From: a virus
Reading direction: 5' to 3' (one strand)
DNA length: 62,929 nt
IMG/VR virus record: IMGVR_UViG_3300034392_000002
The number at the start of each line of letters is the position of its first letter. The first letter of the stretch is position 1. A program made the position numbers and the translations under genes. Positions 1 to 62,929 of the stretch are shown in pieces. The notes beneath the pieces are model-generated. The model saw nothing but the letters and a program-made list of their open reading frames with translations, ran no database searches and was not told the origin of the DNA.

Positions 1-127
1 TCAACATTCCAACCTTCAAGAAAGAGAGACACCGACCATGACGCAGACCCTACAGCCTACTTTCGTACCGCTCGACCAGCTCGGCAAACATATCGTTAGT
101 CAATCAACCGCCGACGTGCTTGAGCGC
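1..127. repeat. Terminal direct repeat copy 1, identical to 62803..62929 (circular-assembly overlap)
   Basis: Read directly: tcaacattccaaccttcaag...cttgagcgc occurs at both ends, and gene 38..238 restarts at 62840. Confidence 0.95.
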
Positions 128-5610: not shown

Positions 5611-5817
5611 ATGGCCTTCAACAACTGGTGGCACTGCCCGTTTTGCAGCGCCACTATTTATTACCACGGGCCGAGCGGCGAGACGCAGGGGCGTGTAGTG
5701 CGGCTGCACTTCAAGTATTGCCGCGTTATCGCCCCGCTCGTCTCGCGGGCCGCGCTCGTACACAAACAACACTATGAAAGGAAGAAACATGAAAGGAACC
5801 GCAAAGGCCGCAGATAA
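5611..5817 (+). CDS. small Cys-containing protein with a basic tail
   Basis: ATG 5611 after aggagg; WHCPFC...HFKYC pattern. Confidence 0.5.
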   Translation: MAFNNWWHCPFCSATIYYHGPSGETQGRVVRLHFKYCRVIAPLVSRAALVHKQHYERKKHERNRKGRR

Positions 5818-7852
5818 CGGCCACTCTAACAATTATGTCCCGGAGGCGGCGCTGGTAGATATTGCCGAAATCAAAGTAGCTCAACAGGCGCGTACTGATT
5901 TCGGCAACATCGAGGAGTTAGCTGCCAGCGTGCGCTCACAAGGAATCCTTCAACCGCTCTTGCTGAGGCCCAACCCAACAGGCTTTCACGCTAAACCAGC
6001 GGGCAATGGATTTCATTTTTATGAGGTGCACAACCGATATGGGAGTGTTATCAGCTCTCCCTTCTACTTTGGTAAAGATTTCCCCGGCAAGAAAACAGAA
6101 GCTCAAGCTAAGGCTGCGGCTGAGGCCGAAGCAGCACGTCTCAACGGAGGTAAATATCTACTCGTCGCTGGCGAACGGCGATTGAAGGCGGCACAGATGG
6201 CGAAGCTCAAGAAAGTGCCTGCCATCATTCGAGAGATGACAGACGAAGAGGCCAGCGCTGCACAGGTCACAGAGAACCTGCAACGCAAAGACCTCAAGCC
6301 GATGGAGGAGGCGCGCGGCTACAAGCAACTCGCAGAATTCAAGGGCCTCAAGACTCTGAAAGAGATTGCCGAGCGTGTGGGCAAGTCGGTCGAGCACGTC
6401 GCGTCCCGCTGGCCGCTTCTCAACCTGGTTGAGCCTGCGCAGCAGCTCGTAGATGAAGGACGGCTGCCACTAAAGCACGCCGCTTATCTCGCCACGCTCG
6501 GCGCAGAGACACAGCCGGCCGCGTTGACTAAGGCTTTCCAGACCCACTGGACACAAAAGGGTCAAGTCCCCAATTATGACAATCCACATAGCTTCGACAC
6601 TTTCAAGCGCGTCATCGAAATGGATGTGTTGCGCGACCTCTCAAATGCTCCGTGGCCGCTCAAACAAGTGTTTGAGCCTGCGCCGAAGGGCTGCGCTCCC
6701 AGTTGCGCTGTCTGCCCGTACAACACCGCTAACGAAGGCGCTCTTTTCGATGCCGGAAAGCAGACGCTCTGCGCCAATGCCGTCGGCTATAACAACAAGA
6801 TGGTGGCGTGGTGGACTATTCAGGCCGAAACGCTGAAGCGCTCGACTGGCCGCGAGGCCGTCTTTGTCGCCAACTCTCACAATCTGACCAAGACGGAGCG
6901 CAAACGCGGTGGATTGCCTGCAACCACTATCGGGCGCGACGAGTGCATGGTCATTCCAAGCAATGAAACCAAATGCGCCTCCTGGGAGCCGGCCGTCGTC
7001 GTGCAGGGCTACATAGACAACAAAACGCCCGGCCATGCCATTACCATCTGCCGCGACCGCAAGTGCAAAGACCACTTCGACCGCGCCGGGGCCTCGATGA
7101 GTAGCACCGTTACTGCCACCTCATCGTCGGCGTCAGACCTGCCGAACAAAGACCAATCGAAGAAGAACCGCGAGCGCAAGCAGGAGCTTTACGACTTGAA
7201 GGTTAATGAGCCGGTGCGCCGCAAGTCACTGGCCGAGGCCATTGCGACGGTCAAGTGGAAGAAGTTAGGACGCTCAGAGTGGAACACAATCGCTATTGCT
7301 CATTACTGCCGCGTGCGGTCGCACACTCAGCGGATTATCCGCGAAGTCTTCAAAGCGGCGACGCAGACAGATTTGCCGGACGCGCATATCGGTGAGACTG
7401 ATTTACTCGGCCATCAGAAACGCATCGGAGAGATTGTGGCCTCTCTGAGCGATGACCAACTCGCACAGTTCATGCTGCTCTGTGCCGTCGGTCACTTTGG
7501 CGAAAATGAGCACATGCACAAGCGTCAGAATCAGGGAGCGCTGAGAGCGTTCGTCGAACACTGGGGCGTCAACTATGCACTTCTCGACGCGACCGAGCGG
7601 GTCGCGCAGTCGTCAAAGAAATACATGGCTAAGCACACTGAGCATCTGCGGAAGGTCAGGGAAGGGAAGGCTGACGTGAAAGATGCTCCACACGTTTATG
7701 ATGAGCCGCCGCCTGAATCTGCGCAGCCCGCGCCAGCAGAACAACCTCAGCCAGTCTCAAAACAGCCAGCCGCTAAAAAGCCAACTACGAAGAAGGCCGG
7801 AGCCAAAAAGCCAGCGAAGGCAGCGGCGAAGAAAGGCGCGCGGAAGAAATGA
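5789..7852 (+). CDS. large ParB/Spo0J N-terminal-domain protein with a Cys-rich middle region and a Lys/Ala/Pro-rich tail
   Basis: ILQPLLLRP ... LLVAGERRLKAAQMA ... TENLQRKDL ParB boxes; ATG 5789 after gaaaggaag (5774 is an alternative start). Confidence 0.75.
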   Translation: MKGTAKAADNGHSNNYVPEAALVDIAEIKVAQQARTDFGNIEELAASVRSQGILQPLLLRPNPTGFHAKPAGNGFHFYEVHNRYGSVISSPFYFGKDFPGKKTEAQAKAAAEAEAARLNGGKYLLVAGERRLKAAQMAKLKKVPAIIREMTDEEASAAQVTENLQRKDLKPMEEARGYKQLAEFKGLKTLKEIAERVGKSVEHVASRWPLLNLVEPAQQLVDEGRLPLKHAAYLATLGAETQPAALTKAFQTHWTQKGQVPNYDNPHSFDTFKRVIEMDVLRDLSNAPWPLKQVFEPAPKGCAPSCAVCPYNTANEGALFDAGKQTLCANAVGYNNKMVAWWTIQAETLKRSTGREAVFVANSHNLTKTERKRGGLPATTIGRDECMVIPSNETKCASWEPAVVVQGYIDNKTPGHAITICRDRKCKDHFDRAGASMSSTVTATSSSASDLPNKDQSKKNRERKQELYDLKVNEPVRRKSLAEAIATVKWKKLGRSEWNTIAIAHYCRVRSHTQRIIREVFKAATQTDLPDAHIGETDLLGHQKRIGEIVASLSDDQLAQFMLLCAVGHFGENEHMHKRQNQGALRAFVEHWGVNYALLDATERVAQSSKKYMAKHTEHLRKVREGKADVKDAPHVYDEPPPESAQPAPAEQPQPVSKQPAAKKPTTKKAGAKKPAKAAAKKGARKK

Positions 7853-30634: not shown

Positions 30635-32257
30635 TTAGGCCGCTACTTCCAGCACCTCCGGCAAAGCGCGATAGCTCTGCGAATCTTTGTCAAATCTCAG
30701 CGTGATAAGAGACGATGCGCTGCCTTTGCGCATTGCGGAAAGCGCACGCAATGCCTTCGCCGCCTCCGGGTCTTTGACCATCAAAGCAGGATCGTAGGCT
30801 GATTCATAACCACATTCCTGAGCGGCCTTATCAGGTGAAATCATGCCTTTCTGAGCTTTGAAGACAGCAGTCTCTGTTCTGACCTGTTCAGCGGTAGCTT
30901 CATTAACGGCATTGCTGGCAGGTGGGCGATTAAACCCGATGGAGATACCGTCAACCTCGATTCCCCCGAGACGCAAATCCAGCATGTATGTTCTCTCCTG
31001 CCTGCGCTTGGGTAAGCGCTGCATATTGCCGGACTGAGCCTTCATAAAGTTGTACACCACGCCGGCGTACGTTTCGGTTGTAGAATCCGTGCGGCCATGA
31101 AAAGCAGGAAAGGTACCCATCCCGGAAAAGACTTGCTGTTCTGACTTCTCATACCATTCGACTCCACCATGAGAATCTGCCGTGAGATTGTCGTGTTTAA
31201 CTGTCTGGTCCTCGTATGTCACAATGATGCCCTTGTTGCTGAGCTTCTCGGCGGCAGCGCCGACTTGGGATTGATAAACCCTCAGGCGAGTTCGATAGGC
31301 AGTTTCTGTTTCATCAGCCTCTTTATCCGGCTTCTTAATCTGAATCGAAATCACACCCAGCAGGCCAAACTTCTTAGCGATAAATTTAATGTTATCCAAC
31401 ATGTCCTTCTGCGATCCTGTAATCGGCTCGATGGCAGCTGTCGCAGGCGGCTTGGCGTAAGGGCTGTTTTCGACTGTTTCCAGAGCGTAGTAACGATATG
31501 TCTCATCGCTTAAGCGGATCAGACCAAGAGGCGAGCGGGCCAGACCTGCTGCCACTCCAGGTTGCTGGTGCGGTATATACTCGCCTTCGATGTGGCGAAA
31601 GCGAATCTGCTCAACAGGGACAATGACTACCTTCTCGACCCGTCGCTTGCTGAAATTCACCACATCTTCGGAAGAGAGAGCGCCCGACCATGCTATCTGC
31701 CGTAAATAAGCATTGATGAGTCCGTCAATGCCTGCACCATTTTTGTAGAGCCTTGCCGCTGACTCATTGAGGCGCTTAATAGCCTGCTGCGTGCGTCGCG
31801 CAGACGAGGCCTCGACGACGATGTTATGACCCGTGTTGCCGAGGTTGACGACGTTGGCGACATACTGGCTCATATCAGGATTGAAAATCATCAGATGCTT
31901 TAGTAGAGCCAGCATCTCAAAATCAATCACAGGGCTTACGCTGCCGTAGAAGGCGAGTGAAGAACCGAAGCGGTCGGCCAGCGTACCTTCCACCGACGAG
32001 CGGCCTGATTCGGGCAACTCCATGCCATTGACGCGCCTCGTGGCGCGCTCTCTAAGAACAGGTGCGAGGAAGCGGAGCTGCTCTGGTGTAGCGTTATTGA
32101 TGAGCGATGTCAGCGGTTCAGCAAGTGAGCCGTGAGCGGTGGAGTCGGCAAGCGTGGCCAGATATAAACATTCCGCCCTGACAGCGAGAGCAGCGTCTCT
32201 CCTATCTAAGCCAAACGCAGAGCGGAACCATTTCTTAAGGTCATTCCAGTAGTCCAT
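30635..32257 (-). CDS. portal protein
   Basis: 540 aa immediately after TerL (TAATG overlap); size and position. Confidence 0.7.
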   Translation of the reverse strand: MDYWNDLKKWFRSAFGLDRRDAALAVRAECLYLATLADSTAHGSLAEPLTSLINNATPEQLRFLAPVLRERATRRVNGMELPESGRSSVEGTLADRFGSSLAFYGSVSPVIDFEMLALLKHLMIFNPDMSQYVANVVNLGNTGHNIVVEASSARRTQQAIKRLNESAARLYKNGAGIDGLINAYLRQIAWSGALSSEDVVNFSKRRVEKVVIVPVEQIRFRHIEGEYIPHQQPGVAAGLARSPLGLIRLSDETYRYYALETVENSPYAKPPATAAIEPITGSQKDMLDNIKFIAKKFGLLGVISIQIKKPDKEADETETAYRTRLRVYQSQVGAAAEKLSNKGIIVTYEDQTVKHDNLTADSHGGVEWYEKSEQQVFSGMGTFPAFHGRTDSTTETYAGVVYNFMKAQSGNMQRLPKRRQERTYMLDLRLGGIEVDGISIGFNRPPASNAVNEATAEQVRTETAVFKAQKGMISPDKAAQECGYESAYDPALMVKDPEAAKALRALSAMRKGSASSLITLRFDKDSQSYRALPEVLEVAA

Positions 32258-34080
32258 TAGTCATCGTCTCCTGTCCACGGCAACGTGCCAGTGTAGGTTG
32301 AGCGCGGTAAAGTCACCCGCGCAATATGATCGTAAACGCAGGCATGGAAGTAATCGTCCGGCTTGCTGTGTACCCACTTAGGCAGGTCTTTGCCCTCTTT
32401 GTTTTTAACAATCACCCGGATGGGAGCTTTCATCTGCGCGGAAATCTCAGCATCGTTGTGTATAGGAGATGGCCATCGCTCTTTCGCCATCGCAATCTGA
32501 TTAAAGACAGCATCCATCGCCATCGTCCGATTGACGTTGATAATGTCCTCTACCTTCTGCGGGTCAACCTCCTTGACTTCGACGCCGTGCATCTTCTTTT
32601 CTTCTTTCGCTGGCAGCCGGAACAATTCGCCATTGAAATCAGTGTTCGGGTAAAACGCGCGTCTGACTCTGCCCTTATGCGCGTTAGCGAACTCTTTTAT
32701 CGCAGTCGGGTCGTACGCGCCGTCTACTACTGCTTGCCGGACGCGGTAGGTCGTCATCAATTCGGCGAGCTGCTGGTTTATGGAGCGGCCTGGTTCAGGA
32801 ACGAGGAAACCCATCTTGCGCACGTACACCACGTTATCCGGCCCAACTGAAGTGATGCGGTAGTAATAGCGAGCGCCTCCGTCTACACCCATCGTCGTAT
32901 CGCGCCATGGGCCAGTGTCCATCAGCCCGGGCGGGATTTCGACGCTCAACTGCTTGAGCATCTCGTCTGTGATGCCGCTGTCTTTCGGCGTGTAGGCGCG
33001 GCCCAAGAACGAGCGATGCAGCTCGGCGATGACTTCAGGGTCGGTGCTGACGGCCATCACGGCCAGCTTGTTGAGATTGAGCTTGCCGCAGGAAAGTGCA
33101 GGTACATCATAGCCGCTGTAAATCTTATTCTCGGGGTGGCGCGCAGTCCATCGCCCCGGCCCGAAAGTATCTATGGGCTGCTGGCACGAAGGGCAGGCAA
33201 CGTACATCTTCGCGGCTGCTACCTGCTCCTTGTCCCATTTCTTCCAGACTTCGTACCCTTCGCCGTCTGCCCGCGCGTCGCGAAAGAAATCAAGCTCATT
33301 CCACTCTTTGCACGAGCCGCACTCGACCTCCCAGACTTTCTGGTCTGATTCCAGATAGAGGGCATCAATACCCATGTTCGGATAGGTAGGCGTGGAGAGC
33401 GTGAATTTATATTCGAGGTCTGAGTTGGCTAGTCGCGCTTCAGCGAGCGCGACAATGTTTGGCTGGATGCGGTCGAATTCATCGAGCACCAGCAAGTCGG
33501 CGTCAAAGGAAAGCATGTCAGGAATTGACTTGCCTCCCGCCAGATGCATGCTGCTCGGGCCGGCCTTCTTAAAAAATACGGAATCGTATTCTGTGAACAG
33601 GTCTCTGAGGTGTTCAGATTCCGCAATCAGGTTAGAGAAGCGCTGCTTGGAAAAGGAACTCAGCGCCTTGCTGGTGGAGAAGAGATAGCCGACGTTCAGG
33701 CCCTCCTTATCGGTATCAAAATACTTGGCACCGACATCGAGCATGTGACACGACCGGGTGACAGCTAAGGTTGACAAACCTTTCTGTGAAGGTTTTTTGA
33801 CGACGATATTAGGATGAGGGTCGTTATAGATTTGGATGAGTGGGATGAAGCTTCGACGGCGCTTCGGGTCATACTCTAGCGAAAATGGCTTGTTATCAAA
33901 GCGGCGGTAGAGGTACGCCCACTCGAGCTGAGATGGCGGGGGCAACTCTTCATCGTCTTGCCCCGCGGCCGGTGCAGGCTCAGCCGTCTGTTCGTCGGGC
34001 AGAAATGTCAATAACATTTCCGCCAGCAAGGCGACGGAGATCGGTTTTGACTCGCTGCTTTGATTCCGGGTCTGTGACAT
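32257..34080 (-). CDS. terL: terminase large subunit
   Basis: Walker-B-like LLVLDEFD; ~600 aa upstream of the portal; start uncertain (34113, 34080 or 34017) because it overlaps the upstream gene. Confidence 0.75.
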   Translation of the reverse strand: MSQTRNQSSESKPISVALLAEMLLTFLPDEQTAEPAPAAGQDDEELPPPSQLEWAYLYRRFDNKPFSLEYDPKRRRSFIPLIQIYNDPHPNIVVKKPSQKGLSTLAVTRSCHMLDVGAKYFDTDKEGLNVGYLFSTSKALSSFSKQRFSNLIAESEHLRDLFTEYDSVFFKKAGPSSMHLAGGKSIPDMLSFDADLLVLDEFDRIQPNIVALAEARLANSDLEYKFTLSTPTYPNMGIDALYLESDQKVWEVECGSCKEWNELDFFRDARADGEGYEVWKKWDKEQVAAAKMYVACPSCQQPIDTFGPGRWTARHPENKIYSGYDVPALSCGKLNLNKLAVMAVSTDPEVIAELHRSFLGRAYTPKDSGITDEMLKQLSVEIPPGLMDTGPWRDTTMGVDGGARYYYRITSVGPDNVVYVRKMGFLVPEPGRSINQQLAELMTTYRVRQAVVDGAYDPTAIKEFANAHKGRVRRAFYPNTDFNGELFRLPAKEEKKMHGVEVKEVDPQKVEDIINVNRTMAMDAVFNQIAMAKERWPSPIHNDAEISAQMKAPIRVIVKNKEGKDLPKWVHSKPDDYFHACVYDHIARVTLPRSTYTGTLPWTGDDD

Positions 34081-34735
34081 TACGTTCGATTGAAGCGGCC
34101 AGCAGTTGAACAAACCGCATCACCTGCTCCTGCAAATCCACCTTTGATTGAGCGACAAGCCGTTTGGATTCTGCCTCGACGAGGCGTGCGCGCTTTGTCC
34201 ACGCCAGTTCTTCGATCTTCTCCCAGTCCTTATCTTCGCTGACACCTTTGCGCAGGATGCTGAGAAGGCGCTGCAAGGCTTCTATGGCTTTGTCGCGATC
34301 CTTGGCTGCCTGTGCGGCGATGAATTCCTCGCAGGCTTCGAGCGCCGAGGCGACTGTGGCAATGCCAGCTCCTATCTTGCTGCGTGCGTGGAGTATTTCG
34401 ACGCGCATGTCCAGCAGCGAGATGTCGGGTCGCAGGGAGAGCAACTCCGTATCTTCTTTGCGTTGCTGAAAGATGGCCAGCAAGTCGGGATCGAGCACAC
34501 CCTCGTAACGTCGTGCGTGCGTACCATCCTTGAATTTGTGGTGCTCGAGACCTTTGACAGAGTTGCCACCGTGTTTGTGGCAGCGCAGGCCGTCTTTCTT
34601 GTGATGGCGCTTGCAGGGCCCGCGCTCGGTCTTGGCGCGACAGTGGACGGTGCAATATAGCCCTTTCCGCCCTTTGATTTTGACCAGCTCCTGCGCGCAT
34701 TCCGGCTTGCCTTTCTCCTTGATTCCGCATTGCAT
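33980..34735 (-). CDS. putative terminase small subunit
   Basis: Cys/His-rich basic N-terminus (HKHGGNSVKGLEHHKFKDG), then LLSLRPDISLLDMRVEIL; lies upstream of TerL. Confidence 0.45.
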   Translation of the reverse strand: MQCGIKEKGKPECAQELVKIKGRKGLYCTVHCRAKTERGPCKRHHKKDGLRCHKHGGNSVKGLEHHKFKDGTHARRYEGVLDPDLLAIFQQRKEDTELLSLRPDISLLDMRVEILHARSKIGAGIATVASALEACEEFIAAQAAKDRDKAIEALQRLLSILRKGVSEDKDWEKIEELAWTKRARLVEAESKRLVAQSKVDLQEQVMRFVQLLAASIERNVTDPESKQRVKTDLRRLAGGNVIDISARRTDG

Positions 34736-34753: not shown

Positions 34754-35014
34754 TCATTTCGCTTTCAAATTAGCATCGCCGCGTTCGTTTTCTTTTCTCT
34801 TTTTTTCATTGGTGACTACTAATTGGGTTAACAGCGCGAGATAGATAGCTTCCAAGCTCACCCAAGTGGTCAATATCAAGAGCACACGATTGACATCCAT
34901 CACCAGCATCAAGAGCAGGTTAAGAATAAAAAAAATGGTATGAATCAATATCGAAAGCGGCGAGCCGACCTTATCAGCTATCCACTCGGCTAATTTGTTG
35001 AAGTTTTCGCCCAT
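34754..35014 (-). CDS. small two-TM membrane protein
   Basis: 86 aa; hydrophobic SILIHTIFFILNLLLMLVM and LLILTTWVSLEAIYLALL; basic tail. Confidence 0.55.
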   Translation of the reverse strand: MGENFNKLAEWIADKVGSPLSILIHTIFFILNLLLMLVMDVNRVLLILTTWVSLEAIYLALLTQLVVTNEKKRKENERGDANLKAK

Positions 35015-35066
35015 CAGGAACGTTCCTCAGATTTTGCGTTCATGGGGTTACTCAGCGTTCATGGGG

Positions 35067-35486
35067 TTACTTTTTGTCCGTAACGAGGCTCATAAATTCT
35101 GCCCGCATCGCGATGTCGAACTTAAACTGACCGTGAATGGCCGAGCAGATCATCTCGCCCTCGCTCTTGATACCTCGCATCGTCATGCAGGAATGCTCTC
35201 CGATGGCGACGACCGCCACGTCAGACGAGCCGGTCTGCTTCAGCACTTCGGAGGCTATCTGGTCAACGAGTTGCTCCTGAATCTGGAGCTGGTGCGCGTA
35301 GAGATGCGCGACGGCCAGATTCGCCGCGACGATAGCGCCGAGGTAGAGCGCGATGAGCAATACTTCAAGCTTCCACGATTGCGCCGTTCTCTCCGTCCTC
35401 TGAGACTTCGCATTTTGAGAGGCCACAGATTTCGATAAGATGGATGGCCCACTGCTCGCATGACCATGTCTCGACATCAACATCAT
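35067..35486 (-). pseudogene. GTP cyclohydrolase I (FolE)-like C-terminal fragment lacking the CEHH zinc motif
   Basis: LQIQEQLVDQIASEVL...VAVVAIGEHSCMTMRGIKSEG...RAEFMSLV aligns with the FolE C-terminal half; the first ~38 aa are unrelated. Confidence 0.55.
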
Positions 35487-35781
35487 TCGCCTTTCGGTAC
35501 ACCTCCGATTGCGTAAGTGAGATAACCTGTGCGACCTCGCGCTTAAAGAGGATGAATTCGATGTATTCAGAGAGAGAGATTTCCGCTCCGGCGTTCATGG
35601 CAGTGAACGCGCCGCAATCGAGCAGCAATTCGATGAGCGGGTTTGTCAGGATGCGCTCAATAGTCTCCGGCTTCTCCTCGCGCAGGTAAGCGTAAGAAAT
35701 CAGGAGCGGCAGTTTGGCAGTCACTGACAGACGATCGGATCGCGGTGTGACAGGTTTTTGGTTAATAGGCGCGCGCCTCAT
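35365..35781 (-). pseudogene. DpdA/TGT-like transglycosylase N-terminal fragment
   Basis: LLISYAYL ... LLLDCGAFTAMNAGAEISLSEYIEFI resembles the D-S-G-[AG]-F-[ST] region of the TGT/DpdA family. The ORF is only 138 aa and ends where FolE similarity begins in another frame. Confidence 0.4.
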
Positions 35782-36394
35782 AACTGGTTCCTTTGAGCGC
35801 GCGGCTTAAGCGCTGGAGGACAGAATCTTTGTCAGCCGCGAGGACGTTTTCTATTTTAATAAGGAAGGTTTCCTGCTCCGGGTCGTAGTCACCGATGGCT
35901 GTGGGGTCTACAGACCTGCCCTTCCAGTTGTGGCCGTCAAGGATGGCTTGCCACTCGGCCGGCTCGAGGCCCAGCCAGGAGGGCTCGAACTCTTTGCCCA
36001 TCTGTTTTGAAATCTGGCGGGCATTCTTTTCGAGCAGTCGAGGGTCGAAGTGCGAGAGTCGAGCGAGCTGGTTAGCGGCGATGCGGTAGGCCGCACGCTT
36101 TGCGCCTTTCAAATCAGAGTACTTGCAGGAAATCGTCTTGCAGCCTTCAAGCTGCATGGCGCGCTTGATACCGTGCCCGGCGATGCAGACGTTATTACGG
36201 TCAATCAAAATATCTTCTTCCTGACCGTAGAGGCGAATGCTGGCGCGCAGGAGCACTATCTGCTCGTCGGTGTGGACGTTCTCATTTCGGGGATCGTCCT
36301 TGACCTCATCAATCGGGAGTTCGATGTATCTTTGGCCGCGCTCAGTATGCGCTCCGGCCGCACTCCTTTTTTTCTTTGACGTTCTAGTTGTCAT
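35762..36394 (-). CDS. ParB-like nuclease-domain (ParB/Srx fold) protein
   Basis: IELPIDEVKDDPRNENVHTDEQIVLLRASIRLYGQEEDILIDRNNVCIAGHGIKRAM. Confidence 0.65.
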   Translation of the reverse strand: MTTRTSKKKRSAAGAHTERGQRYIELPIDEVKDDPRNENVHTDEQIVLLRASIRLYGQEEDILIDRNNVCIAGHGIKRAMQLEGCKTISCKYSDLKGAKRAAYRIAANQLARLSHFDPRLLEKNARQISKQMGKEFEPSWLGLEPAEWQAILDGHNWKGRSVDPTAIGDYDPEQETFLIKIENVLAADKDSVLQRLSRALKGTSYEARAY

Positions 36395-36471: not shown

Positions 36472-36954
36472 TCAGAAGAAAACGCTGCTGGTAATCTTTC
36501 TCAAAACCTCCGGCATGGAAACAGGGCTTTTCGAAAAGCCGTTCGACGATTTAAGCTCGTTGCAATCCGTCTTTCGATGGCTGAGCAGGCAATAGATAGA
36601 GCTGATGAGTTGCGGCATGGTGATGGGCTTGGTTAAGACTTCCATCCCGAACTCTTCAGCGTTCTCATGCGTCACGCTGCGGTCATAGGCTGTCAGGAAC
36701 GCTTTGACGATGTGCGGGTAATGTTCGTGGAGCACCGCTGCGACCGTCGCCCCTGATTCTCCCAGCAGATTGACATCGAGGATGGCGGCGGCAACCGGCT
36801 GGCTGGCGATGATGTTCAGCGCTTCATCCGCCGTCTCCGCGAAAACGGTGCGGAACGCAGGTTGGTAAACCTTCATGCCATGCTCGACCATGGCGCGGAT
36901 GTCATCCACATCGTCAACGAATAAGACCAGAGGCAGAGATGTTGTCTCGCTCAT
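36472..36954 (-). CDS. stand-alone response-regulator receiver (CheY-like REC) domain protein
   Basis: LFVDDVDD, phospho-acceptor-like ILDVNL, FLTAY and LTKPI in canonical order. Confidence 0.7.
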   Translation of the reverse strand: MSETTSLPLVLFVDDVDDIRAMVEHGMKVYQPAFRTVFAETADEALNIIASQPVAAAILDVNLLGESGATVAAVLHEHYPHIVKAFLTAYDRSVTHENAEEFGMEVLTKPITMPQLISSIYCLLSHRKTDCNELKSSNGFSKSPVSMPEVLRKITSSVFF

Positions 36955-48116: not shown

Positions 48117-49268
48117 CTACTCTTTTCTTCTCCGGCGTCGGCCTCTGCGCTTCGCTTTGCGCGGTCGCAGTTTGCGCCGGCGCTTAAAGGGCAACACCAC
48201 GAGGCGCATCGCGCGGCGCTGGCCCTTCTCTTTTCGGTGGTCGTAAATCTGTGTGGTCTCGACGCGCGCGTGGCCGAGGAGCTGCTGCACGTCCGTAATC
48301 TCTGCGCCCTGGTCCAACAGGTGTGTAGCGAAGGTGTGGCGCAGGCCGTGCGGCGTGCAGGTGCTCTCGAGGCGCGCCTCGCAGGAACGCCGGAGCACGA
48401 TCTTGTAGGGAGCATCCTGACTTAACGGTTTGAGCGAGACTTCTCCCTGCCGCGTGATAGAGCAAAGGAAGGGACCGGGCTTTCCGCCTCGCAGCACAAT
48501 CCAATCGGTAAGTGCGCGCAAGGTTCCTTTGTCTTCGAGGAAGATGCGCCGCTCCTTATTGCCCTTACCAATGACCGTCAGTGTGCGCTCGCGGTGATTG
48601 AAGTTTGAGAGTTGTAATTCGATAGCCTCGGACTTTCGCAGGCCTGCGCCGGCGAGTAATGCAAGGAGCGCCGCGTCCCGCGCGGCGACCAGACTTCGGC
48701 CACGCCCTTGCGCGCACGCTGTAAAGAGAGCCGCCAACTCTTCGAGAGAAAGAGCGCGGGCGCGTTGGAGCCGCACGCCTTCGGCTGGCTTGACTTCGAG
48801 AATGCGGTCGAGTTGTTCCTGACTGATGAGTTTGCTTCTTCTGGCCTGCCGCATCACGCCCCTGATGGCCGAGAGCGTGGCGTTGACGGTCGCGGGTGCA
48901 AGCCCGTCGAAGAGCATCCGGGAGCGCAGGCGCTCGACCTCGACAAAGGTGATTTGCTTCCAGTTGATTTCTCCGACCGTGGTGCGCAAGTACCTGGCGA
49001 CGCGCCGGAGGTTTCTGAACATGGACTCGCGCGAACACTGGCTTGAGAGCGTGATGATGTAGTGGACGGCCGGGCTGATTTCCGCGACGGCGCTCTCTGT
49101 GAGAGCGCGTCGTTCCTCCTGCTCGATGAAGGCCGCGAGCGAGAGCCGGAGCGAGCGCTGGCGTAGCGTGGCAGCCTCCGGGCCGCCCTCGATCACGCGC
49201 AGGGGCCGAGGCTGTGCGGCCGCGCTCTCGCTCTCTGTGGAGTGATTCGTGATAATAGGCGTTTTCAC
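48117..49268 (-). CDS. int: tyrosine recombinase (integrase/XerC-D-like) with an Arg/Lys-rich tail
   Basis: HGLRHTFATHLLDQGAEITDVQQLLGHARVETTQIYDH. Confidence 0.85.
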   Translation of the reverse strand: MKTPIITNHSTESESAAAQPRPLRVIEGGPEAATLRQRSLRLSLAAFIEQEERRALTESAVAEISPAVHYIITLSSQCSRESMFRNLRRVARYLRTTVGEINWKQITFVEVERLRSRMLFDGLAPATVNATLSAIRGVMRQARRSKLISQEQLDRILEVKPAEGVRLQRARALSLEELAALFTACAQGRGRSLVAARDAALLALLAGAGLRKSEAIELQLSNFNHRERTLTVIGKGNKERRIFLEDKGTLRALTDWIVLRGGKPGPFLCSITRQGEVSLKPLSQDAPYKIVLRRSCEARLESTCTPHGLRHTFATHLLDQGAEITDVQQLLGHARVETTQIYDHRKEKGQRRAMRLVVLPFKRRRKLRPRKAKRRGRRRRRKE

Positions 49269-59822: not shown

Positions 59823-61031
59823 TTAGTTGGTCGTTAGTCGTTTATGGTTGCATCTAGCAACGCCCTTCTCATAGCCCTCAGGATAATACAGGCCACTCCC
59901 ACCGCAGTCAGGACATTTACGAACATCGCCCTGCGGGGTGGGAGTCGGCTCGCGGCTGGCCTCGGCCTTCCCTTCCTCAGTGAGTTGCCGCTGGTCTTTC
60001 TTCCAGAGCCGTCGCCGCAGGTGTTCGGCGAGGAACGAAGGCACAGATGAGATGGTAGTGCGAGCGGCAGCAATCTTCAACTCAGCGACGAGGACCTCGG
60101 CCAGCTCCGTCCAACGCTCTGCATCAGCGTGAGACGGAGCGACTCCCGTTAGCTCTGTGGTTGTCGTTTTCAGCCGTTCGACCATGCCAGCCAGCGCAGC
60201 GTCATCATCAATCGTTCGCTGGTCTTTAAGAAAAGTCTTAGCTTCGCCGGAAGCAGTTGATTCTGTAAGAGATGAACTCTGGTCACTCTGAGCAGATTCT
60301 GCACTGGGTGGTCTGAGCAGATTCGACTCTGTGTGGTCTGAGTGGTCTGTGCTGTTCACCTGCACAGGGTTGCCGTCCAAATCGAAAGGAAGGCGCGCTT
60401 CTTCCGGGAGATGAACAGAATAGAGATTGCCGTCCTGCTCGCCATGAATTGACTGCCATGAAACTAGCCCGACCGCGCGCAGGTGCAGCAGATTATCTCT
60501 GAGCGTATGAGTCGAACCGATGTCTGAGCCTTTCATCAATTCCATTCGGCGCAACCTGACAGTCACTACCGGGACTATCGCGCCGCGGGTTTTCGAATAC
60601 AGGTAATCGTAAAGCTGTTTTGATTTTCCTCTAAAGAGGCCGTGGCGGATGGCATCCCGAACGATGGAGTTTGCGGCCTTCATATAATCGCGAGCTGGCG
60701 CGATTGCGGTCTGTGCAGTTGTCCTGCTCAGAGTAGAACGACTGCCCTGTGCAGCCTTCCTGCTCTGAGTAGTTTGTCTGCTCGGAGTTGATGGCCTGCT
60801 CTGTGCAGGACTGATGATCTGAGTGGCCTGTGCTGAAGAGGTGCTCTGAGTAGGTGAACTGCTCTGAGCATCCGAAGTGCCTAGAGTACGCTCTGCTTCG
60901 GGTTGAGCTTCAGCTCTCCCCATGAGACGGTTCATTACACTTTTAACGGTCGCATTCTCGGCAGGGGTAATTGATACAGACTCAATACTATACTTCCTGC
61001 GCCTGCGCGACTGCGTTTGGTCTTTCGACAC
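59823..61031 (-). CDS. second O-like winged-helix initiator / partition-adaptor candidate with a Ser/Thr/Gln-rich N-terminus and a CxxCGGSG zinc knuckle
   Basis: GTG start after aggaga; LYDYLYSKTRGAIVPVVTVRLRRMELMKGSDIGSTHTLRDNLLHLRAVGLV; C-terminal KCPDCGGSGLYYPEG. Confidence 0.5.
   Translation of the reverse strand: MSKDQTQSRRRRKYSIESVSITPAENATVKSVMNRLMGRAEAQPEAERTLGTSDAQSSSPTQSTSSAQATQIISPAQSRPSTPSRQTTQSRKAAQGSRSTLSRTTAQTAIAPARDYMKAANSIVRDAIRHGLFRGKSKQLYDYLYSKTRGAIVPVVTVRLRRMELMKGSDIGSTHTLRDNLLHLRAVGLVSWQSIHGEQDGNLYSVHLPEEARLPFDLDGNPVQVNSTDHSDHTESNLLRPPSAESAQSDQSSSLTESTASGEAKTFLKDQRTIDDDAALAGMVERLKTTTTELTGVAPSHADAERWTELAEVLVAELKIAAARTTISSVPSFLAEHLRRRLWKKDQRQLTEEGKAEASREPTPTPQGDVRKCPDCGGSGLYYPEGYEKGVARCNHKRLTTN
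60285..60351. repeat. Dyad-containing repeats TCTGAGCAGATTC (2 exact copies plus degenerate copies) inside the initiator-like gene
   Basis: 60287..60299 and 60312..60324 are identical but read in different codon phases (SNLLR vs ESAQS). Confidence 0.8.
60722..60871. repeat. Degenerate ~18-bp periodic repeats with core CTGCTC(A/T)GAG
   Basis: cctgctcagagtag, cctgctctgagtag, cctgctctgtgcag, gtgctctgagtag, tgctctgagca; the core is the reverse complement of the 60285 motif. Confidence 0.65.
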
Positions 61032-61794
61032 GGCTGATAATCTCCTGAGTTAGTTGCTCGTAGTCTTGATGTGCACGGCTCCCGTGAGCGTAATCAACGA
61101 TCGGCATACGCGCGGCAGAGGATTCCACTAAAGTCGCCGTGTGCCTGATGATGGTATCTAGGGCCAAGCCCTCAAAATCCTCTTTAATCTTCTCCAGCAC
61201 GTCTTTATTGACATTCACGTTGCTGCGATGAATGGTCGCCAGCGCATAGATTTGCAGCGCCGGATTAGATTCTTCCATGACATCGTTAACGATGGCCATC
61301 AAGCGCTTTAACGCAGCGTAAGCAAACCAGTTCGTTTGAATCGCTACAATCAGGTGTGTGGCGGCACAGAAGGCGTTAACAGTAGAAATCCCAAGCGTCG
61401 GCGCACAATCAACGACCGTGTAATCGAAATCGCTCTCGAGCTGCGCCAGTGCACGCGCCAGCCGCATCTCGCGATTGATAACGGAAACGAGCTTCAGGTC
61501 AATCTCAGCCAGCGCCAGATGGCCGGGCGCAAGTTGGAGGTTAGGGCCGACGGGCTTGATGATCGCTTGCATGCCAGGAGTCTTTTCCGACATCAGAGCA
61601 TAGGAACTCAGCATCTCGTCTTGCGGTGTCTCCTGACCTAAGTGGTCAGTAGCATTAGCCTGTGGGTCCAAGTCCACCAGCAGCACGCGCCGGTTGGAAC
61701 GCGCCAGACAGGTTGCCAGATTAACCGCTGTCGTTGTCTTTCCGACGCCGCCCTTTTGATTTGCGATGACGATAGTTTTCATCTGACTGCTCAT
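60988..61794 (-). CDS. parA: ParA/Soj-type partition ATPase
   Basis: KTIVIANQKGGVGKTTTAVNLA deviant Walker A. Confidence 0.85.
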   Translation of the reverse strand: MSSQMKTIVIANQKGGVGKTTTAVNLATCLARSNRRVLLVDLDPQANATDHLGQETPQDEMLSSYALMSEKTPGMQAIIKPVGPNLQLAPGHLALAEIDLKLVSVINREMRLARALAQLESDFDYTVVDCAPTLGISTVNAFCAATHLIVAIQTNWFAYAALKRLMAIVNDVMEESNPALQIYALATIHRSNVNVNKDVLEKIKEDFEGLALDTIIRHTATLVESSAARMPIVDYAHGSRAHQDYEQLTQEIISRVERPNAVAQAQEV

Positions 61795-62802: not shown

Positions 62803-62929
62803 TCAACATTCCAACCTTCAAGAAAGAGAGACACCGACCATGACGCAGACCCTACAGCCTACTTTCGTACCGCTCGACCAGCTCGGCAAACATATCGTTA
62901 GTCAATCAACCGCCGACGTGCTTGAGCGC
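62803..62929. repeat. Terminal direct repeat copy 2, identical to 1..127
   Basis: Exact 127-bp identity with the window start. Confidence 0.95.

What the first reader, a model, noticed from the sequence alone, without database searches (positions are those of the whole stretch)
35067..36394. Decayed 7-deazaguanine-type DNA-modification module: ParB-fold gene, truncated DpdA-like ORF, FolE C-terminal fragment
- Three consecutive minus-strand ORFs lie between the lysis genes and the terminase.
- The first is a ParB-like nuclease-domain protein (CIAGHGIKRAM box).
- The second overlaps it by 20 nt. It is a 138-aa ORF whose N-terminal ~100 aa carry a TGT/DpdA-like LLLDCGAFT...ISLSEYIEFI region.
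- The third overlaps the second out of frame by 122 nt. Its last ~100 aa align with the C-terminal half of GTP cyclohydrolase I, including EHSCMTMRG, but it lacks the upstream CEHH zinc motif.
- FolE similarity starts at about 35372, almost exactly where the DpdA-like frame stops (35365). That is the pattern expected from a deletion joining the 5' part of dpdA to the 3' part of folE.
- From memory of the dpd-island literature, the TGT-like DpdA works with a ParB-fold partner DpdB, and phage deazaguanine clusters include FolE.
- The module could be a relic, or a minimal version that uses host preQ0.
Basis: partly seen in the sequence, partly recalled or inferred. Interest (0 to 1): 0.65.

Follow-up and report, generated by a model that had tools for sequence, protein, structure and literature searches.

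The report
Deletion-wrecked phage 7-deazaguanine DNA-modification module
A circular 62.8-kb phage-like element carries the non-functional remains of a seven-gene cluster that once replaced guanine in its DNA with a 7-deazaguanine base. Two in-frame deletions removed about 3 kb and left two chimeric ORFs beside an intact ParB-like gene.

Summary
Eight other contigs from JGI, ENA and Logan assemblies match this stretch at 100% identity.

The anatomy is different.
- **ORF2** is DpdA residues 1-77 fused in frame to the C-terminal 64 residues of DpdL. DpdL is the QueD paralogue proposed as the 7-carboxy-7-deazaguanine decarboxylase.
- **ORF3** is the first transmembrane helix of a Vut_1/YhhQ-like precursor transporter fused in frame to the last 80 residues of FolE.
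- **Lost genes:** queD and queE are gone, and no queC exists anywhere in the window.

Intact relatives (L045, L024 and about ten others) show the ancestral order: ParB-like, dpdA, dpdL, vut1, queD, queE, folE, terminase.

Both junctions sit in short patches shared by the two parent genes: ACATCGAATT at the first and GTCGCGCAT at the second. The deletions measure about 0.86 kb and 1.9-2.2 kb.

DpdA keeps one of its three invariant catalytic aspartates, so a minimal module running on host preQ0 is excluded.

Two sister phages carry different dpdA lesions: an in-frame dpdA::queD fusion, and two frameshifts.

This is an ordinary relic of a known system with a tidy deletion history. Interest is low to moderate.

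The parts
35762..36394 (-). Intact ParB-like gene (210 aa). It has a ParB/Srx-type N-terminal domain with the motif AGHGIKRA, plus a conserved C-terminal domain (IGDYDP...ETF.IK...Y.A.AY). Its stop codon overlaps the ORF2 start by 20 nt.
   Evidence: - phrog_620 at E=1.5e-22 and phrog_498 at E=4.8e-23.
- PDB 4umk ParB at E=0.005.
- Matches only the ParB-like N-terminal domain of PADLOC MTase_II.
- No hit in Pfam at E<=1 or NCBIfam at E<=0.01.
- Orthologues at 53-67% identity lie directly upstream of dpdA in L009 and L013. More distant homologues hold the same position in L024, L045 and L010.
35365..35781 (-). ORF2 (138 aa): an in-frame chimera of the DpdA N-terminus and the DpdL C-terminus.
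   Evidence: In the alignment, homologues cover either residues 1-77 or residues 74-138, never both.
35551..35781 (-). DpdA fragment, residues 1-77 of about 300. It keeps KLPLLISYAYLR and the DCGAF motif. It lacks the ALD, LGG and SxDxSSW regions.
   Evidence: - tblastn with L013 DpdA: residues 1-82, 63% identity, E=1.9e-27.
- Alignment A4.
- phrog_887 profile positions 37-87 of 509.
35555..35564 (-). Junction 1: the microhomology ACATCGAATT (codons for Y-IEF), where dpdA joins dpdL.
   Evidence: - In relative L009 the same 10 nt occur in dpdA (TAC ATC GAA TTT) and in dpdL (GAC ATC GAA TTC), 855 nt apart.
- The equivalent sites in L045 are 856 nt apart.
35368..35562 (-). DpdL fragment: the C-terminal 64-65 residues of a protein of about 106 aa. 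It keeps WSCEQWA and EVSEDGENGA. It lacks the LxxxHRHxF metal-binding signature.
   Evidence: - tblastn with L009 DpdL: residues 50-105, E=2.6e-19.
- 81% identical to P0002.
- The family includes phiST CGPG_00067, which PMC10516641 names DpdL.
- phrog_17812.
35067..35426 (-). ORF3 (119 aa from GTG 35426, 139 aa from ATG 35486, 97 aa from TTG 35360): an in-frame chimera of the Vut_1/YhhQ-like N-terminus and the FolE C-terminus.
35301..35408 (-). Vut_1/YhhQ-like fragment: about the first 35 residues, including the first transmembrane helix (LIALYLGAIVAANLAVA).
   Evidence: - tblastn with L009 Vut1: residues 2-37, 50% identity, E=4e-8.
- Pairwise alignment.
- Full-length relatives pass the Pfam Vut_1 cut-off at 29-36 bits against 27.2.
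- NCBIfam queuosine precursor transporter at E=1.8e-4.
35304..35312 (-). Junction 2: GTC GCG CAT (V-A-H), where vut1 joins folE.
   Evidence: - Vut1 of L045 reads ...GCA GTC GCC CAC TTC (AVAHF).
- FolE of L009 reads ...ATC GCG CAC AAG (IAHK), and P0018 reads RIAHLYAH.
- The window reads AVAHLYAH.
35070..35312 (-). FolE fragment: the C-terminal 80 residues, equivalent to residues 101-179 of a 179-aa FolE. It keeps QLQIQEQL and GEHSCMTMRG. It lacks the N-terminal half with the CEHH zinc motif.
   Evidence: - Pfam PF01227 at E=1.9e-18, profile positions 101-178 of 179.
- NCBIfam FolE models at 59-69 bits, far below their full-length cut-offs of 162-202 bits.
- Full-length relatives P0018 and P0019 (191-194 aa) are 74-77% identical over this part.
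36472..36954 (-). Upstream operon neighbour: a stand-alone response-regulator receiver protein. It marks the synteny and is not part of the module.
   Evidence: - Pfam Response_reg at E=1.1e-11.
- Present just upstream of the ParB-like gene in L009, L013 and L045.
32257..34735 (-). Downstream operon neighbours: a Cys-rich 251-aa protein (33980..34735) and the terminase large subunit (32257..34113). They mark the distal boundary of the former module.
   Evidence: - GpA_ATPase at E=4e-21 and phrog_675 at E=1e-75.
- The 251-aa protein is homologous to the L009 270-aa protein that follows folE (E=8e-36).

Best explanation
The region is the inactive remnant of a late-operon 7-deazaguanine DNA-modification module. 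The ancestral order was ParB-like, dpdA, dpdL, vut1 (YhhQ-like), queD, queE, folE, followed by the terminase genes.

**Predicted ancestral function**
- FolE, QueD and QueE make 7-carboxy-7-deazaguanine from GTP.
- DpdL is proposed to decarboxylate it to 7-deazaguanine.
- DpdA swaps that base for guanine in phage DNA, which protects the DNA from restriction.
- This pathway is taken from the literature on related phages. The DpdL step has not been validated experimentally.

**What happened here**
- Deletion 1 (about 0.86 kb) joined dpdA codon 77 to dpdL codon 50, within a shared ACATCGAATT.
- Deletion 2 (about 1.9-2.2 kb) joined vut1 codon 35 to folE codon 101, within a shared (G/A)TCGCNCA. It removed queD and queE entirely.
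- Both junctions lie between short direct repeats and both fusions are in frame.

**Consequences**
- None of the four surviving fragments can be catalytic.
  - DpdA keeps one of three invariant aspartates.
  - DpdL lacks its HRH metal site.
  - FolE lacks its CEHH half.
  - Vut1 keeps one helix.
- The phage therefore no longer makes or inserts deazaguanine.
- The ParB-like gene is intact and presumably still functional.

**Inferences**
- The in-frame state probably reflects selection to keep translation running through this tightly overlapping operon into the packaging genes.
- The loss is evolutionarily recent, because every family-invariant residue in the DpdL fragment is still present.
For: **Fragment mapping**
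- Every homologue of ORF2 covers only its N-terminal part (DpdA) or only its C-terminal part (DpdL).
- ORF3 residues 29-60 align to the Vut1 N-terminus and residues 59-139 to FolE residues 101 to the end.
- A six-frame search of the whole 62.9-kb window finds only these four fragments. It finds no QueC, QueD or QueE.

**Intact synteny in relatives**
- L045: terminase large subunit 62% identical to L009's, against 53% for the window.
- L024: DpdA 66% identical to L013's.
- Also L025, L051, L057, L058, L060, L088 and L010.
- The contig carrying P0002 has DpdL, QueD and QueE in order.

**DpdL identity**
- The family carries LxxxHRHxF and includes phiST CGPG_00067 and an Acidovorax phage ACP17 homologue.
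- Profile-profile comparison with QueD gives E=1.5e-4.

**Junctions and deletion size**
- Junction sequences and microhomologies are shown.
- The span from the ParB stop to the FolE stop is 695 nt here, against 3375 nt in L009 and about 3758 nt in L045.

**Not an artefact**
- Eight other contigs are 100% identical across the region.

**Loss of function**
- Asp95, Asp130 and Asp256 are invariant in bacterial DpdA and TGT. D95A and D256A abolish activity (PMC10164549).
- The window fragment aligns only to the DxGAF aspartate.

**Operon continuity**
- No terminator-like site, and only one weak plus-strand promoter-like match (no more than chance), lies between 34600 and 37100.
- No Rfam family matches between 34000 and 37200.
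- The opposite-strand ORFs have no homologues.
Against: - No parent genome close enough at the nucleotide level was found. The junctions are therefore located to within a few nucleotides by comparison with relatives that are 50-80% identical at the protein level.
- The fragments show no stop codons, frameshifts or loss of invariant residues. That also fits continued selection on the chimeras.
- Two of two fusions here being in frame, plus one in L013, has a chance probability of about 1 in 27. This could hint at function rather than only avoidance of polarity.
- Reads could not be inspected.
- The product of the ancestral pathway (dDG) is a literature prediction. Cui et al. could not reconstitute it in E. 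coli.
Confidence: 0.87

Rival explanations
1. One reading: one deletion joined the 5' part of dpdA directly to the 3' part of folE, leaving a truncated DpdA ORF and a FolE fragment.
For: The DpdA N-terminus and the FolE C-terminus are both present, and they lie within 250 nt of each other.
Against: - Between them lie a 64-residue DpdL C-terminal half (E=2.6e-19) and a 35-residue Vut1 N-terminus (E=4e-8), in the same order as in intact relatives.
- FolE similarity starts at 35312, not at the ORF2 stop.
Confidence: 0.02
2. A minimal but functional module: the short DpdA-like protein, with the ParB-fold partner, still inserts host-made preQ0 or another deazapurine into DNA.
For: - Some phages carry DpdA alone, or DpdA with a Vut1-like gene, and may rely on host precursors (PMC6884629; PEAT2 and AB3P2).
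- The ParB-like gene is intact.
Against: - Only 77 of about 300 DpdA residues remain.
- The regions aligned to the other two invariant aspartates, including the nucleophile, and to the histidine and the SxDxSSW motif are deleted.
- The remainder of the ORF is a DpdL fragment without its metal site.
Confidence: 0.02
3. The chimeric ORFs are retained because they have a use. They might act as small neo-functional proteins, for example a membrane-anchored T-fold fragment. Alternatively, translating them may be needed to couple expression from the ParB-like gene to the downstream packaging genes.
For: - Both fusions are in frame.
- No later disabling mutations are seen, and all DpdL-invariant residues in the fragment are retained.
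- ORF2 has a Shine-Dalgarno-like AAGGA 8-12 nt upstream of its start codon and keeps the conserved 20-nt overlap with the ParB-like gene.
- No terminator or promoter lies inside the stretch.
Against: - No diverged genome carries either chimera. Searches of 5.8 billion proteins returned only identical copies.
- All copies are 100% identical at the nucleotide level, so selection cannot be measured.
- Half-domains of TIM-barrel and T-fold proteins rarely fold on their own.
Confidence: 0.08
4. Assembly or sequencing artefact: the genes are intact in the real genome, and the contig has collapsed or carries frameshift errors.
For: - The contig comes from a metagenome.
- Reads were not available.
Against: - The sequence is identical in eight other contigs, from JGI, ENA (k141 contig names) and Logan.
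- About 2.7-3.1 kb of coding sequence is missing, not a few bases.
- The deleted sequence appears nowhere else in the circular 62.8-kb genome.
Confidence: 0.01

Closest known systems
[quoted passage not shown]
   Same: - The inferred ancestral gene set is the same: DpdA, FolE, QueD, QueE and DpdL, with no QueC.
- The DpdL family here carries the published LxxxHRHxF signature.
- It is 39-41% identical to phiST CGPG_00067 and to the ACP17 homologue.
   Different: - Only fragments survive in the window.
- The intact relatives of this lineage have a different gene order, a ParB-like gene upstream and a Vut_1/YhhQ-like gene after dpdL. Neither was found in phiST.
- The DpdA here is closest to mycobacteriophage and Seuratvirus-type DpdA at about 30% identity. 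The phiST DpdA (CGPG_00065) does not cross-match it.
Mycobacterium phage Quesadilla/Rosebush-type cluster: ParB-like, DpdA, QueC, QueD, QueE, FolE, TerS, TerL (dPreQ0 shown for Rosebush, PMC6884629)
   Same: - The architecture and genome position are the same: a ParB-like gene overlapping dpdA, then the biosynthesis genes, then the terminase.
- This is the nearest cultured layout to the ancestral module.
   Different: - QueC occupies the slot that DpdL plus Vut1 occupy in this lineage.
- All genes are intact there. Here two deletions remain.
Bacterial Dpd system DpdA-DpdB (Salmonella Montevideo; PMC10164549)
   Same: A TGT-like DNA transglycosylase is encoded next to a ParB-superfamily protein.
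   Different: - DpdB has a DGQQR motif and an SspE-like C-terminal domain, and by mass it is roughly twice the size of the protein here.
- The protein here is 210 aa, has AGHGIKRA instead, and has a different C-terminal domain.
- It hits no DpdB model.
- Whether it assists the phage DpdA is untested.
GTP cyclohydrolase I, FolE (PF01227)
   Same: The last 80 residues of ORF3 are clearly homologous, at 67 bits, and include the EHxCMxMRG region.
   Different: The N-terminal 100 residues, including the CEHH zinc and substrate site, are replaced by a foreign transmembrane helix.

Membership tests
Functional phage 7-deazaguanine (DpdA/DpdL, dDG-type) modification module | Full-length DpdA transglycosylase with the three invariant active-site aspartates | tested here: not met
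   - Only residues 1-77 of about 300 remain.
- Only the DxGAF aspartate is present.
- The ALD, LGG and SxDxSSW regions are deleted (residue roles from PMC10164549).
Functional phage 7-deazaguanine (DpdA/DpdL, dDG-type) modification module | DpdL with the LxxxHRHxF metal-binding signature | tested here: not met
   Only DpdL residues 50-106 remain. The signature lies at residues 27-35 and is deleted.
Functional phage 7-deazaguanine (DpdA/DpdL, dDG-type) modification module | QueD and QueE present | tested here: not met
   tblastn with two QueD and three QueE references finds nothing in six frames of the whole window beyond one chance-level 18-residue match (E=0.35).
Functional phage 7-deazaguanine (DpdA/DpdL, dDG-type) modification module | Full-length FolE | tested here: not met
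   - Pfam profile positions 101-178 of 179 only.
- NCBIfam FolE scores of 59-69 bits against cut-offs of 162-202 bits.
Descent from a DpdA/DpdL module (ancestry, not function) | Fragments of dpdA, dpdL, vut1 and folE in the same order, on the same strand and with the same flanking genes as in intact relatives | tested here: met
   The order ParB-like, DpdA(N), DpdL(C), Vut1(N), FolE(C), Cys-rich protein, TerL matches L009, L045 and L024 gene for gene.
Descent from a DpdA/DpdL module (ancestry, not function) | Modified base (dDG) in virion DNA of intact relatives | not testable with these tools
   This needs LC-MS/MS. The DpdL function is itself only predicted.
DpdB (ParB-like ATPase partner of bacterial DpdA) | DGQQR/DGQHR NTPase motif, an SspE-like C-terminal domain and a match to DpdB profiles | tested here: not met
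   - The motif here is AGHGIKRA, and the protein is 210 aa.
- No hit in NCBIfam at E<=0.01 or in PADLOC at E<=0.1, other than the ParB-like N-domain of an MTase model.
- PADLOC also failed to hit the intact phage DpdAs, so this negative result is weak.
DpdB (ParB-like ATPase partner of bacterial DpdA) | Encoded next to dpdA | tested here: met
   - It overlaps the dpdA start by 20 nt here, in L009 and in L013.
- A ParB-like gene directly precedes dpdA in about half of roughly 95 loci.
ParB/Srx N-terminal domain superfamily | Sequence match to ParB N-terminal domain profiles | tested here: met
   - phrog_620 at E=1.5e-22 and phrog_15396 at E=3e-14.
- PDB 4umk at E=0.005.
- Pfam ParB_N itself gives no hit at E<=1.
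Vut_1 / YhhQ queuosine-precursor transporter | Multi-helix membrane domain matching PF02592 | tested here: not met
   - Only about 35 N-terminal residues (one helix) remain.
- Full-length relatives score 29-36 bits against a 27.2-bit cut-off.

The most novel reading that the evidence does not exclude
Loss of the deazaguanine module may be adaptive and recurrent in this temperate, plasmid-like phage lineage.

- Three of four sister genomes disabled dpdA by different routes:
  - the window, by two in-frame deletions;
  - L013, by an in-frame dpdA::queD fusion;
  - L009, by two +1 frameshifts.
- L045 is intact.
- All three kept the overlapping ParB-like gene and the reading continuity of the operon.
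- This would imply counter-selection against 7-deazaguanine DNA. Possible causes are a modification-dependent host defence, or the cost of modifying host DNA during lysogeny.
- It would also imply a role for the ParB-like protein that does not depend on DpdA.
Probability: 0.2. Interest if true: 0.5.

Novelty: new member of a known kind. Interest (0 to 1): 0.3.

Why it matters
This is a cautionary example for annotation. Domain hits to TGT/DpdA and GTP cyclohydrolase I would suggest that this phage modifies its DNA, yet no working enzyme is left.

It also documents how such a module dies. Short in-frame microhomology deletions fuse neighbouring genes while the late operon stays translatable.

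Two further points could interest people working on deazaguanine DNA:
- **Repeated loss:** sister phages carry independent dpdA lesions. This hints that carrying the modification is not always an advantage.
- **Possible partners:** the intact relatives have a conserved ParB-like, DpdA, DpdL, Vut_1 arrangement. It offers candidate partners for the DpdL pathway, which has not been reconstituted in E. coli.

Tried and rejected
- **blastn against phage genomes:** the region gave no match, so no nucleotide-level relative is available.
- **Metagenome scan with the ParB-like alignment:** no confirmed relative, and the window's own contig was not recovered either.
- **P0002 contig:** this is the closest DpdL relative at 81% identity, but no DNA is held for it. 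P0003 is not on record.
- **Viral scan with the terminase:** only three lineage relatives came back. L018 has too little upstream sequence to be useful.
- **Degenerate FolE in L013 (GTHSCACSRG), withdrawn:** the glutamate is variable across this phage clade, including in intact clusters.
- **Vut_1 as a universal DpdL partner, rejected:** cultured DpdL phages lack this Vut_1, and phiST CGPG_00066 is an AAA-like protein instead. Cultured Vut_1 phages lack DpdL.
- **Opposite strand and non-coding features:** opposite-strand ORFs, Rfam families, promoters and terminators in the region gave nothing.
- **Structure prediction, not run:** no DpdB crystal structure was reported in the paper read (SAXS only), and the PDB sequence search returned only ParB. 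A ParB-fold match would therefore not separate the hypotheses.
Full report
**1. Observation**

The three minus-strand ORFs exist exactly as described: 35762..36394 (210 aa), 35365..35781 (138 aa) and 35067..35486 (139 aa). They overlap by 20 nt and 122 nt, and the quoted motifs are in the sequence.

- ORF3 matches Pfam GTP_cyclohydroI at E=1.9e-18, over profile positions 101-178 of 179 only.
- ORF2 residues 26-77 match the DpdA/TGT family phrog_887 at E=8e-7.
- The 210-aa protein matches ParB-like PHROG families at E about 1e-22. It has no Pfam or NCBIfam hit.

The terminase large subunit and the portal follow downstream. The upstream 'lysis genes' rest on a single weak holin hit.

The stretch is 100% identical in eight other contigs, three each from JGI and Logan and two from ENA. 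Two further ENA contigs carry the same ORF layout. An assembly artefact is therefore very unlikely.

**2. What ORF2 and ORF3 really are**

A search of 5.8 billion proteins with ORF2 returned hits of two kinds. Some cover only its first 77 or so residues. The others cover only its last 64 or so residues.

The first kind are DpdA N-termini (P0003, P0004).

The second kind are proteins of about 110 aa with the pattern FEGFHxWP...FLRxxHRHxFHV...DRDVEFILLKR...WSCEQWA...EVSEDGENGAIVE. This is DpdL. Cui, Hutinet et al. described DpdL as a QueD paralogue whose CxxxHGH signature is changed to LxxxHRHxF. They found it in phages that have DpdA, FolE, QueD and QueE but no QueC, and proposed it as the 7-carboxy-7-deazaguanine decarboxylase that leads to dDG (PMC10516641).

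Three results tie this family to their DpdL:
- The full-length relative from L009 hits phiST CGPG_00067, their DpdL, at 41% identity. It hits Acidovorax phage ACP17 at 39%.
- The signature is near-invariant in my alignment.
- A profile-profile comparison with QueD aligns HRH with HGH at E=1.5e-4.

ORF3 is also a chimera.
- Residues 29-60 (…SWKLEVLLIALYLGAIVAANLAVA) align to the N-terminus and first transmembrane helix of a Vut_1/YhhQ-like protein in relatives.
- Residues 59-139 align to FolE from residue 101 to the end.
- Full-length Vut_1 relatives pass the Pfam cut-off.

A six-frame tblastn of the whole window used reference ParB-like, DpdA, DpdL, Vut1, QueD, QueE, FolE and QueC proteins. 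Besides the intact ParB-like gene, it found only these four fragments:

| Fragment | Residues matched | Window coordinates |
|---|---|---|
| DpdA | 1-82 | 35781..35536 |
| DpdL | 50-105 | 35562..35371 |
| Vut1 | 2-37 | 35408..35301 |
| FolE | 101-end | 35312..35070 |

**3. The ancestral module**

Relatives were retrieved through the ParB-like protein, the terminase and a DpdA alignment. They show the intact arrangement: ParB-like, dpdA, dpdL, vut1, queD, queE, folE, then terminase.

This order is seen in:
- L045, a 65-kb viral contig. Its terminase large subunit is 62% identical to L009's, against 53% for the window.
- L024, a contig binned with a Pyrinomonadaceae MAG. Its DpdA is 66% identical to L013's.
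- L025, L051, L057, L058, L060, L088 and L010.

In other members of the same DpdA clade, QueC occupies the slot that DpdL plus Vut1 occupy here. That layout is the one in Mycobacterium phage Quesadilla: ParB-like, DpdA, QueC, QueD, QueE, FolE, TerS, TerL. The overlap between the end of dpdL and the start of vut1 is ancestral, so the ORF2/ORF3 overlap is inherited rather than new.

**4. The two deletions**

*Junction 1.*
- The window reads CTC TCT GAA TAC ATC GAA TTC ATC CTC TTT AAG.
- In L009, dpdA reads ...GAT TAC ATC GAA TTT CTC... and dpdL reads ...CGC GAC ATC GAA TTC ATC CTC TTC AAG...
- The two L009 sites share ACATCGAATT and lie 855 nt apart. The equivalent sites in L045 are 856 nt apart.

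*Junction 2.*
- The window reads GCC GTC GCG CAT CTC TAC GCG CAC (AVAHLYAH).
- Vut1 of L045 reads GCA GTC GCC CAC TTC (AVAHF).
- FolE of L009 reads ATC GCG CAC AAG (IAHK), and the close FolE P0018 reads RIAHLYAH.
- The equivalent sites are 1888 nt apart in L009 and 2241 nt apart in L045.

*Size check.* The span from the ParB stop to the FolE stop is 695 nt here. It is 3375 nt in L009 and about 3758 nt in L045. This fits a total loss of 2.7-3.1 kb.

Both events look like deletions between short direct repeats, and both produced in-frame fusions. The exact breakpoints are inferred from relatives at 50-80% protein identity, not from a true parent sequence.

**5. Function**

None of the fragments can be active.
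- **DpdA:** bacterial DpdA needs Asp95 (general acid/base, in a D-x-x-x-F context) and Asp256 (nucleophile). Asp130 is also invariant (PMC10164549). By alignment, the window fragment has only the DCGAF aspartate.
- **DpdL:** the HRH site is gone.
- **FolE:** the CEHH half is gone.
- **Vut1:** one helix is left.

The 'minimal module on host preQ0' idea is therefore excluded.

The fragments still carry every DpdL family-invariant residue and have no secondary lesions. All sampled copies are identical. I read this as a recent event in a clonal population, which is an inference.

The region has no terminator-like site, and only one weak plus-strand promoter-like match, no more than chance. It has no Rfam match, and the opposite-strand ORFs have no homologues. 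It is a continuous stretch of a late operon. Selection against polar effects on the downstream packaging genes is a reasonable explanation for the in-frame outcome, but it is untested.

**6. The ParB-like gene**

The gene is intact here and in the two sister phages whose dpdA is also broken.
- It has a ParB/Srx-type N-domain and a conserved C-terminal domain that ends at the dpdA start.
- It is not a DpdB by sequence. It has no DGQQR motif, no profile hit and half the size.
- A ParB-like gene directly upstream of dpdA is very common in phage clusters, so a helper role remains possible.
- Its survival after dpdA loss argues for some additional function.

**7. Sister lineages**

- **L013:** ParB-like protein 66-67% identical to the window's. 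It has a different in-frame fusion, DpdA residues 1-222 joined to QueD from residue 16. DpdL and Vut1 are lost.
- **L009:** the biosynthesis genes are intact, but dpdA is interrupted by two +1 insertions, TTT to TTTT and an extra C.
- **L048:** dpdA appears frameshifted near its C-terminus.
- **L045:** intact.

Repeated independent inactivation is suggestive. It rests on four genomes, and the single-base lesions could in principle be assembly errors.

**8. Comparison and verdict**

The ancestral system belongs to the published DpdA/DpdL class and has a Quesadilla-like layout. What sits in the window is a dead remnant of it.

The proposed junction, the host-preQ0 alternative and the DpdB label are not supported.

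I rate novelty as a new, degenerate member of a known kind, and interest at about 0.3.

Noticed in passing
window 1-127 and 62803-62929; ParA 60988..61794 (-); ParB+HTH 5774..7852 (+); integrase 48117..49268 (-): The contig ends repeat exactly over 127 bp, so the element is a complete 62,802-bp circle. It encodes a ParA/ParB partition pair and a tyrosine integrase alongside a full tailed-phage structural module. That fits a temperate phage-plasmid lifestyle.
   Followed up: partly
window 36472..36954 (-): A stand-alone response-regulator receiver-domain protein (160 aa) sits just upstream of the ParB-like gene. It is conserved at that position in L009, L013 and, weakly, L045. Its role in a phage late operon is unexplained.
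   Followed up: no
window 35036..35070 (-): A perfect 16-nt direct repeat, GTAACCCCATGAACGC, occurs twice with a 3-nt spacer (19-nt period). It begins one base before the stop codon of ORF3, in the 52-nt gap before the next gene. It could be a duplication footprint or a binding site.
   Followed up: no
loci L009-L012, L024, L025, L045-L048, L051, L057, L058, L060, L088 versus L049, L050, L052-L056 and others: Within one DpdA clade, the slot after dpdA holds either QueC or a DpdL plus Vut_1 (YhhQ-like) pair. It never holds QueC with Vut_1. Cultured DpdL phages such as phiST and ACP17 lack this Vut_1. Cultured phages with it, such as PEAT2 and the mEp021-like phages, lack DpdL. The pairing is therefore specific to this clade.
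   Followed up: partly
L046 7114-10559; L047 687-2392; L052-L056: Some relatives carry two or three tandem dpdA paralogues. In L052-L056 the second copy is frameshifted at about residue 80.
   Followed up: no
L013 7711..8703: A sister phage has an independent in-frame dpdA(1-222)::queD(16-end) fusion ORF of 330 aa. The QueD part matches NCBIfam QueD positions 17-91.
   Followed up: yes
window 34754..35014 (-): An 86-aa predicted membrane protein with no family hit lies between the FolE fragment and the Cys-rich 251-aa protein. L009 has no gene here, and L013 has an unrelated 124-aa ORF. It looks like a variable insertion slot.
   Followed up: no
FolE alignment A7 (window 35190-35200 region): The glutamate of the FolE G-E-H-x-C-M motif is replaced by S, V, A or T in several full-length FolE proteins of this phage clade, including in the intact cluster L045. 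The window fragment keeps the glutamate.
   Followed up: no
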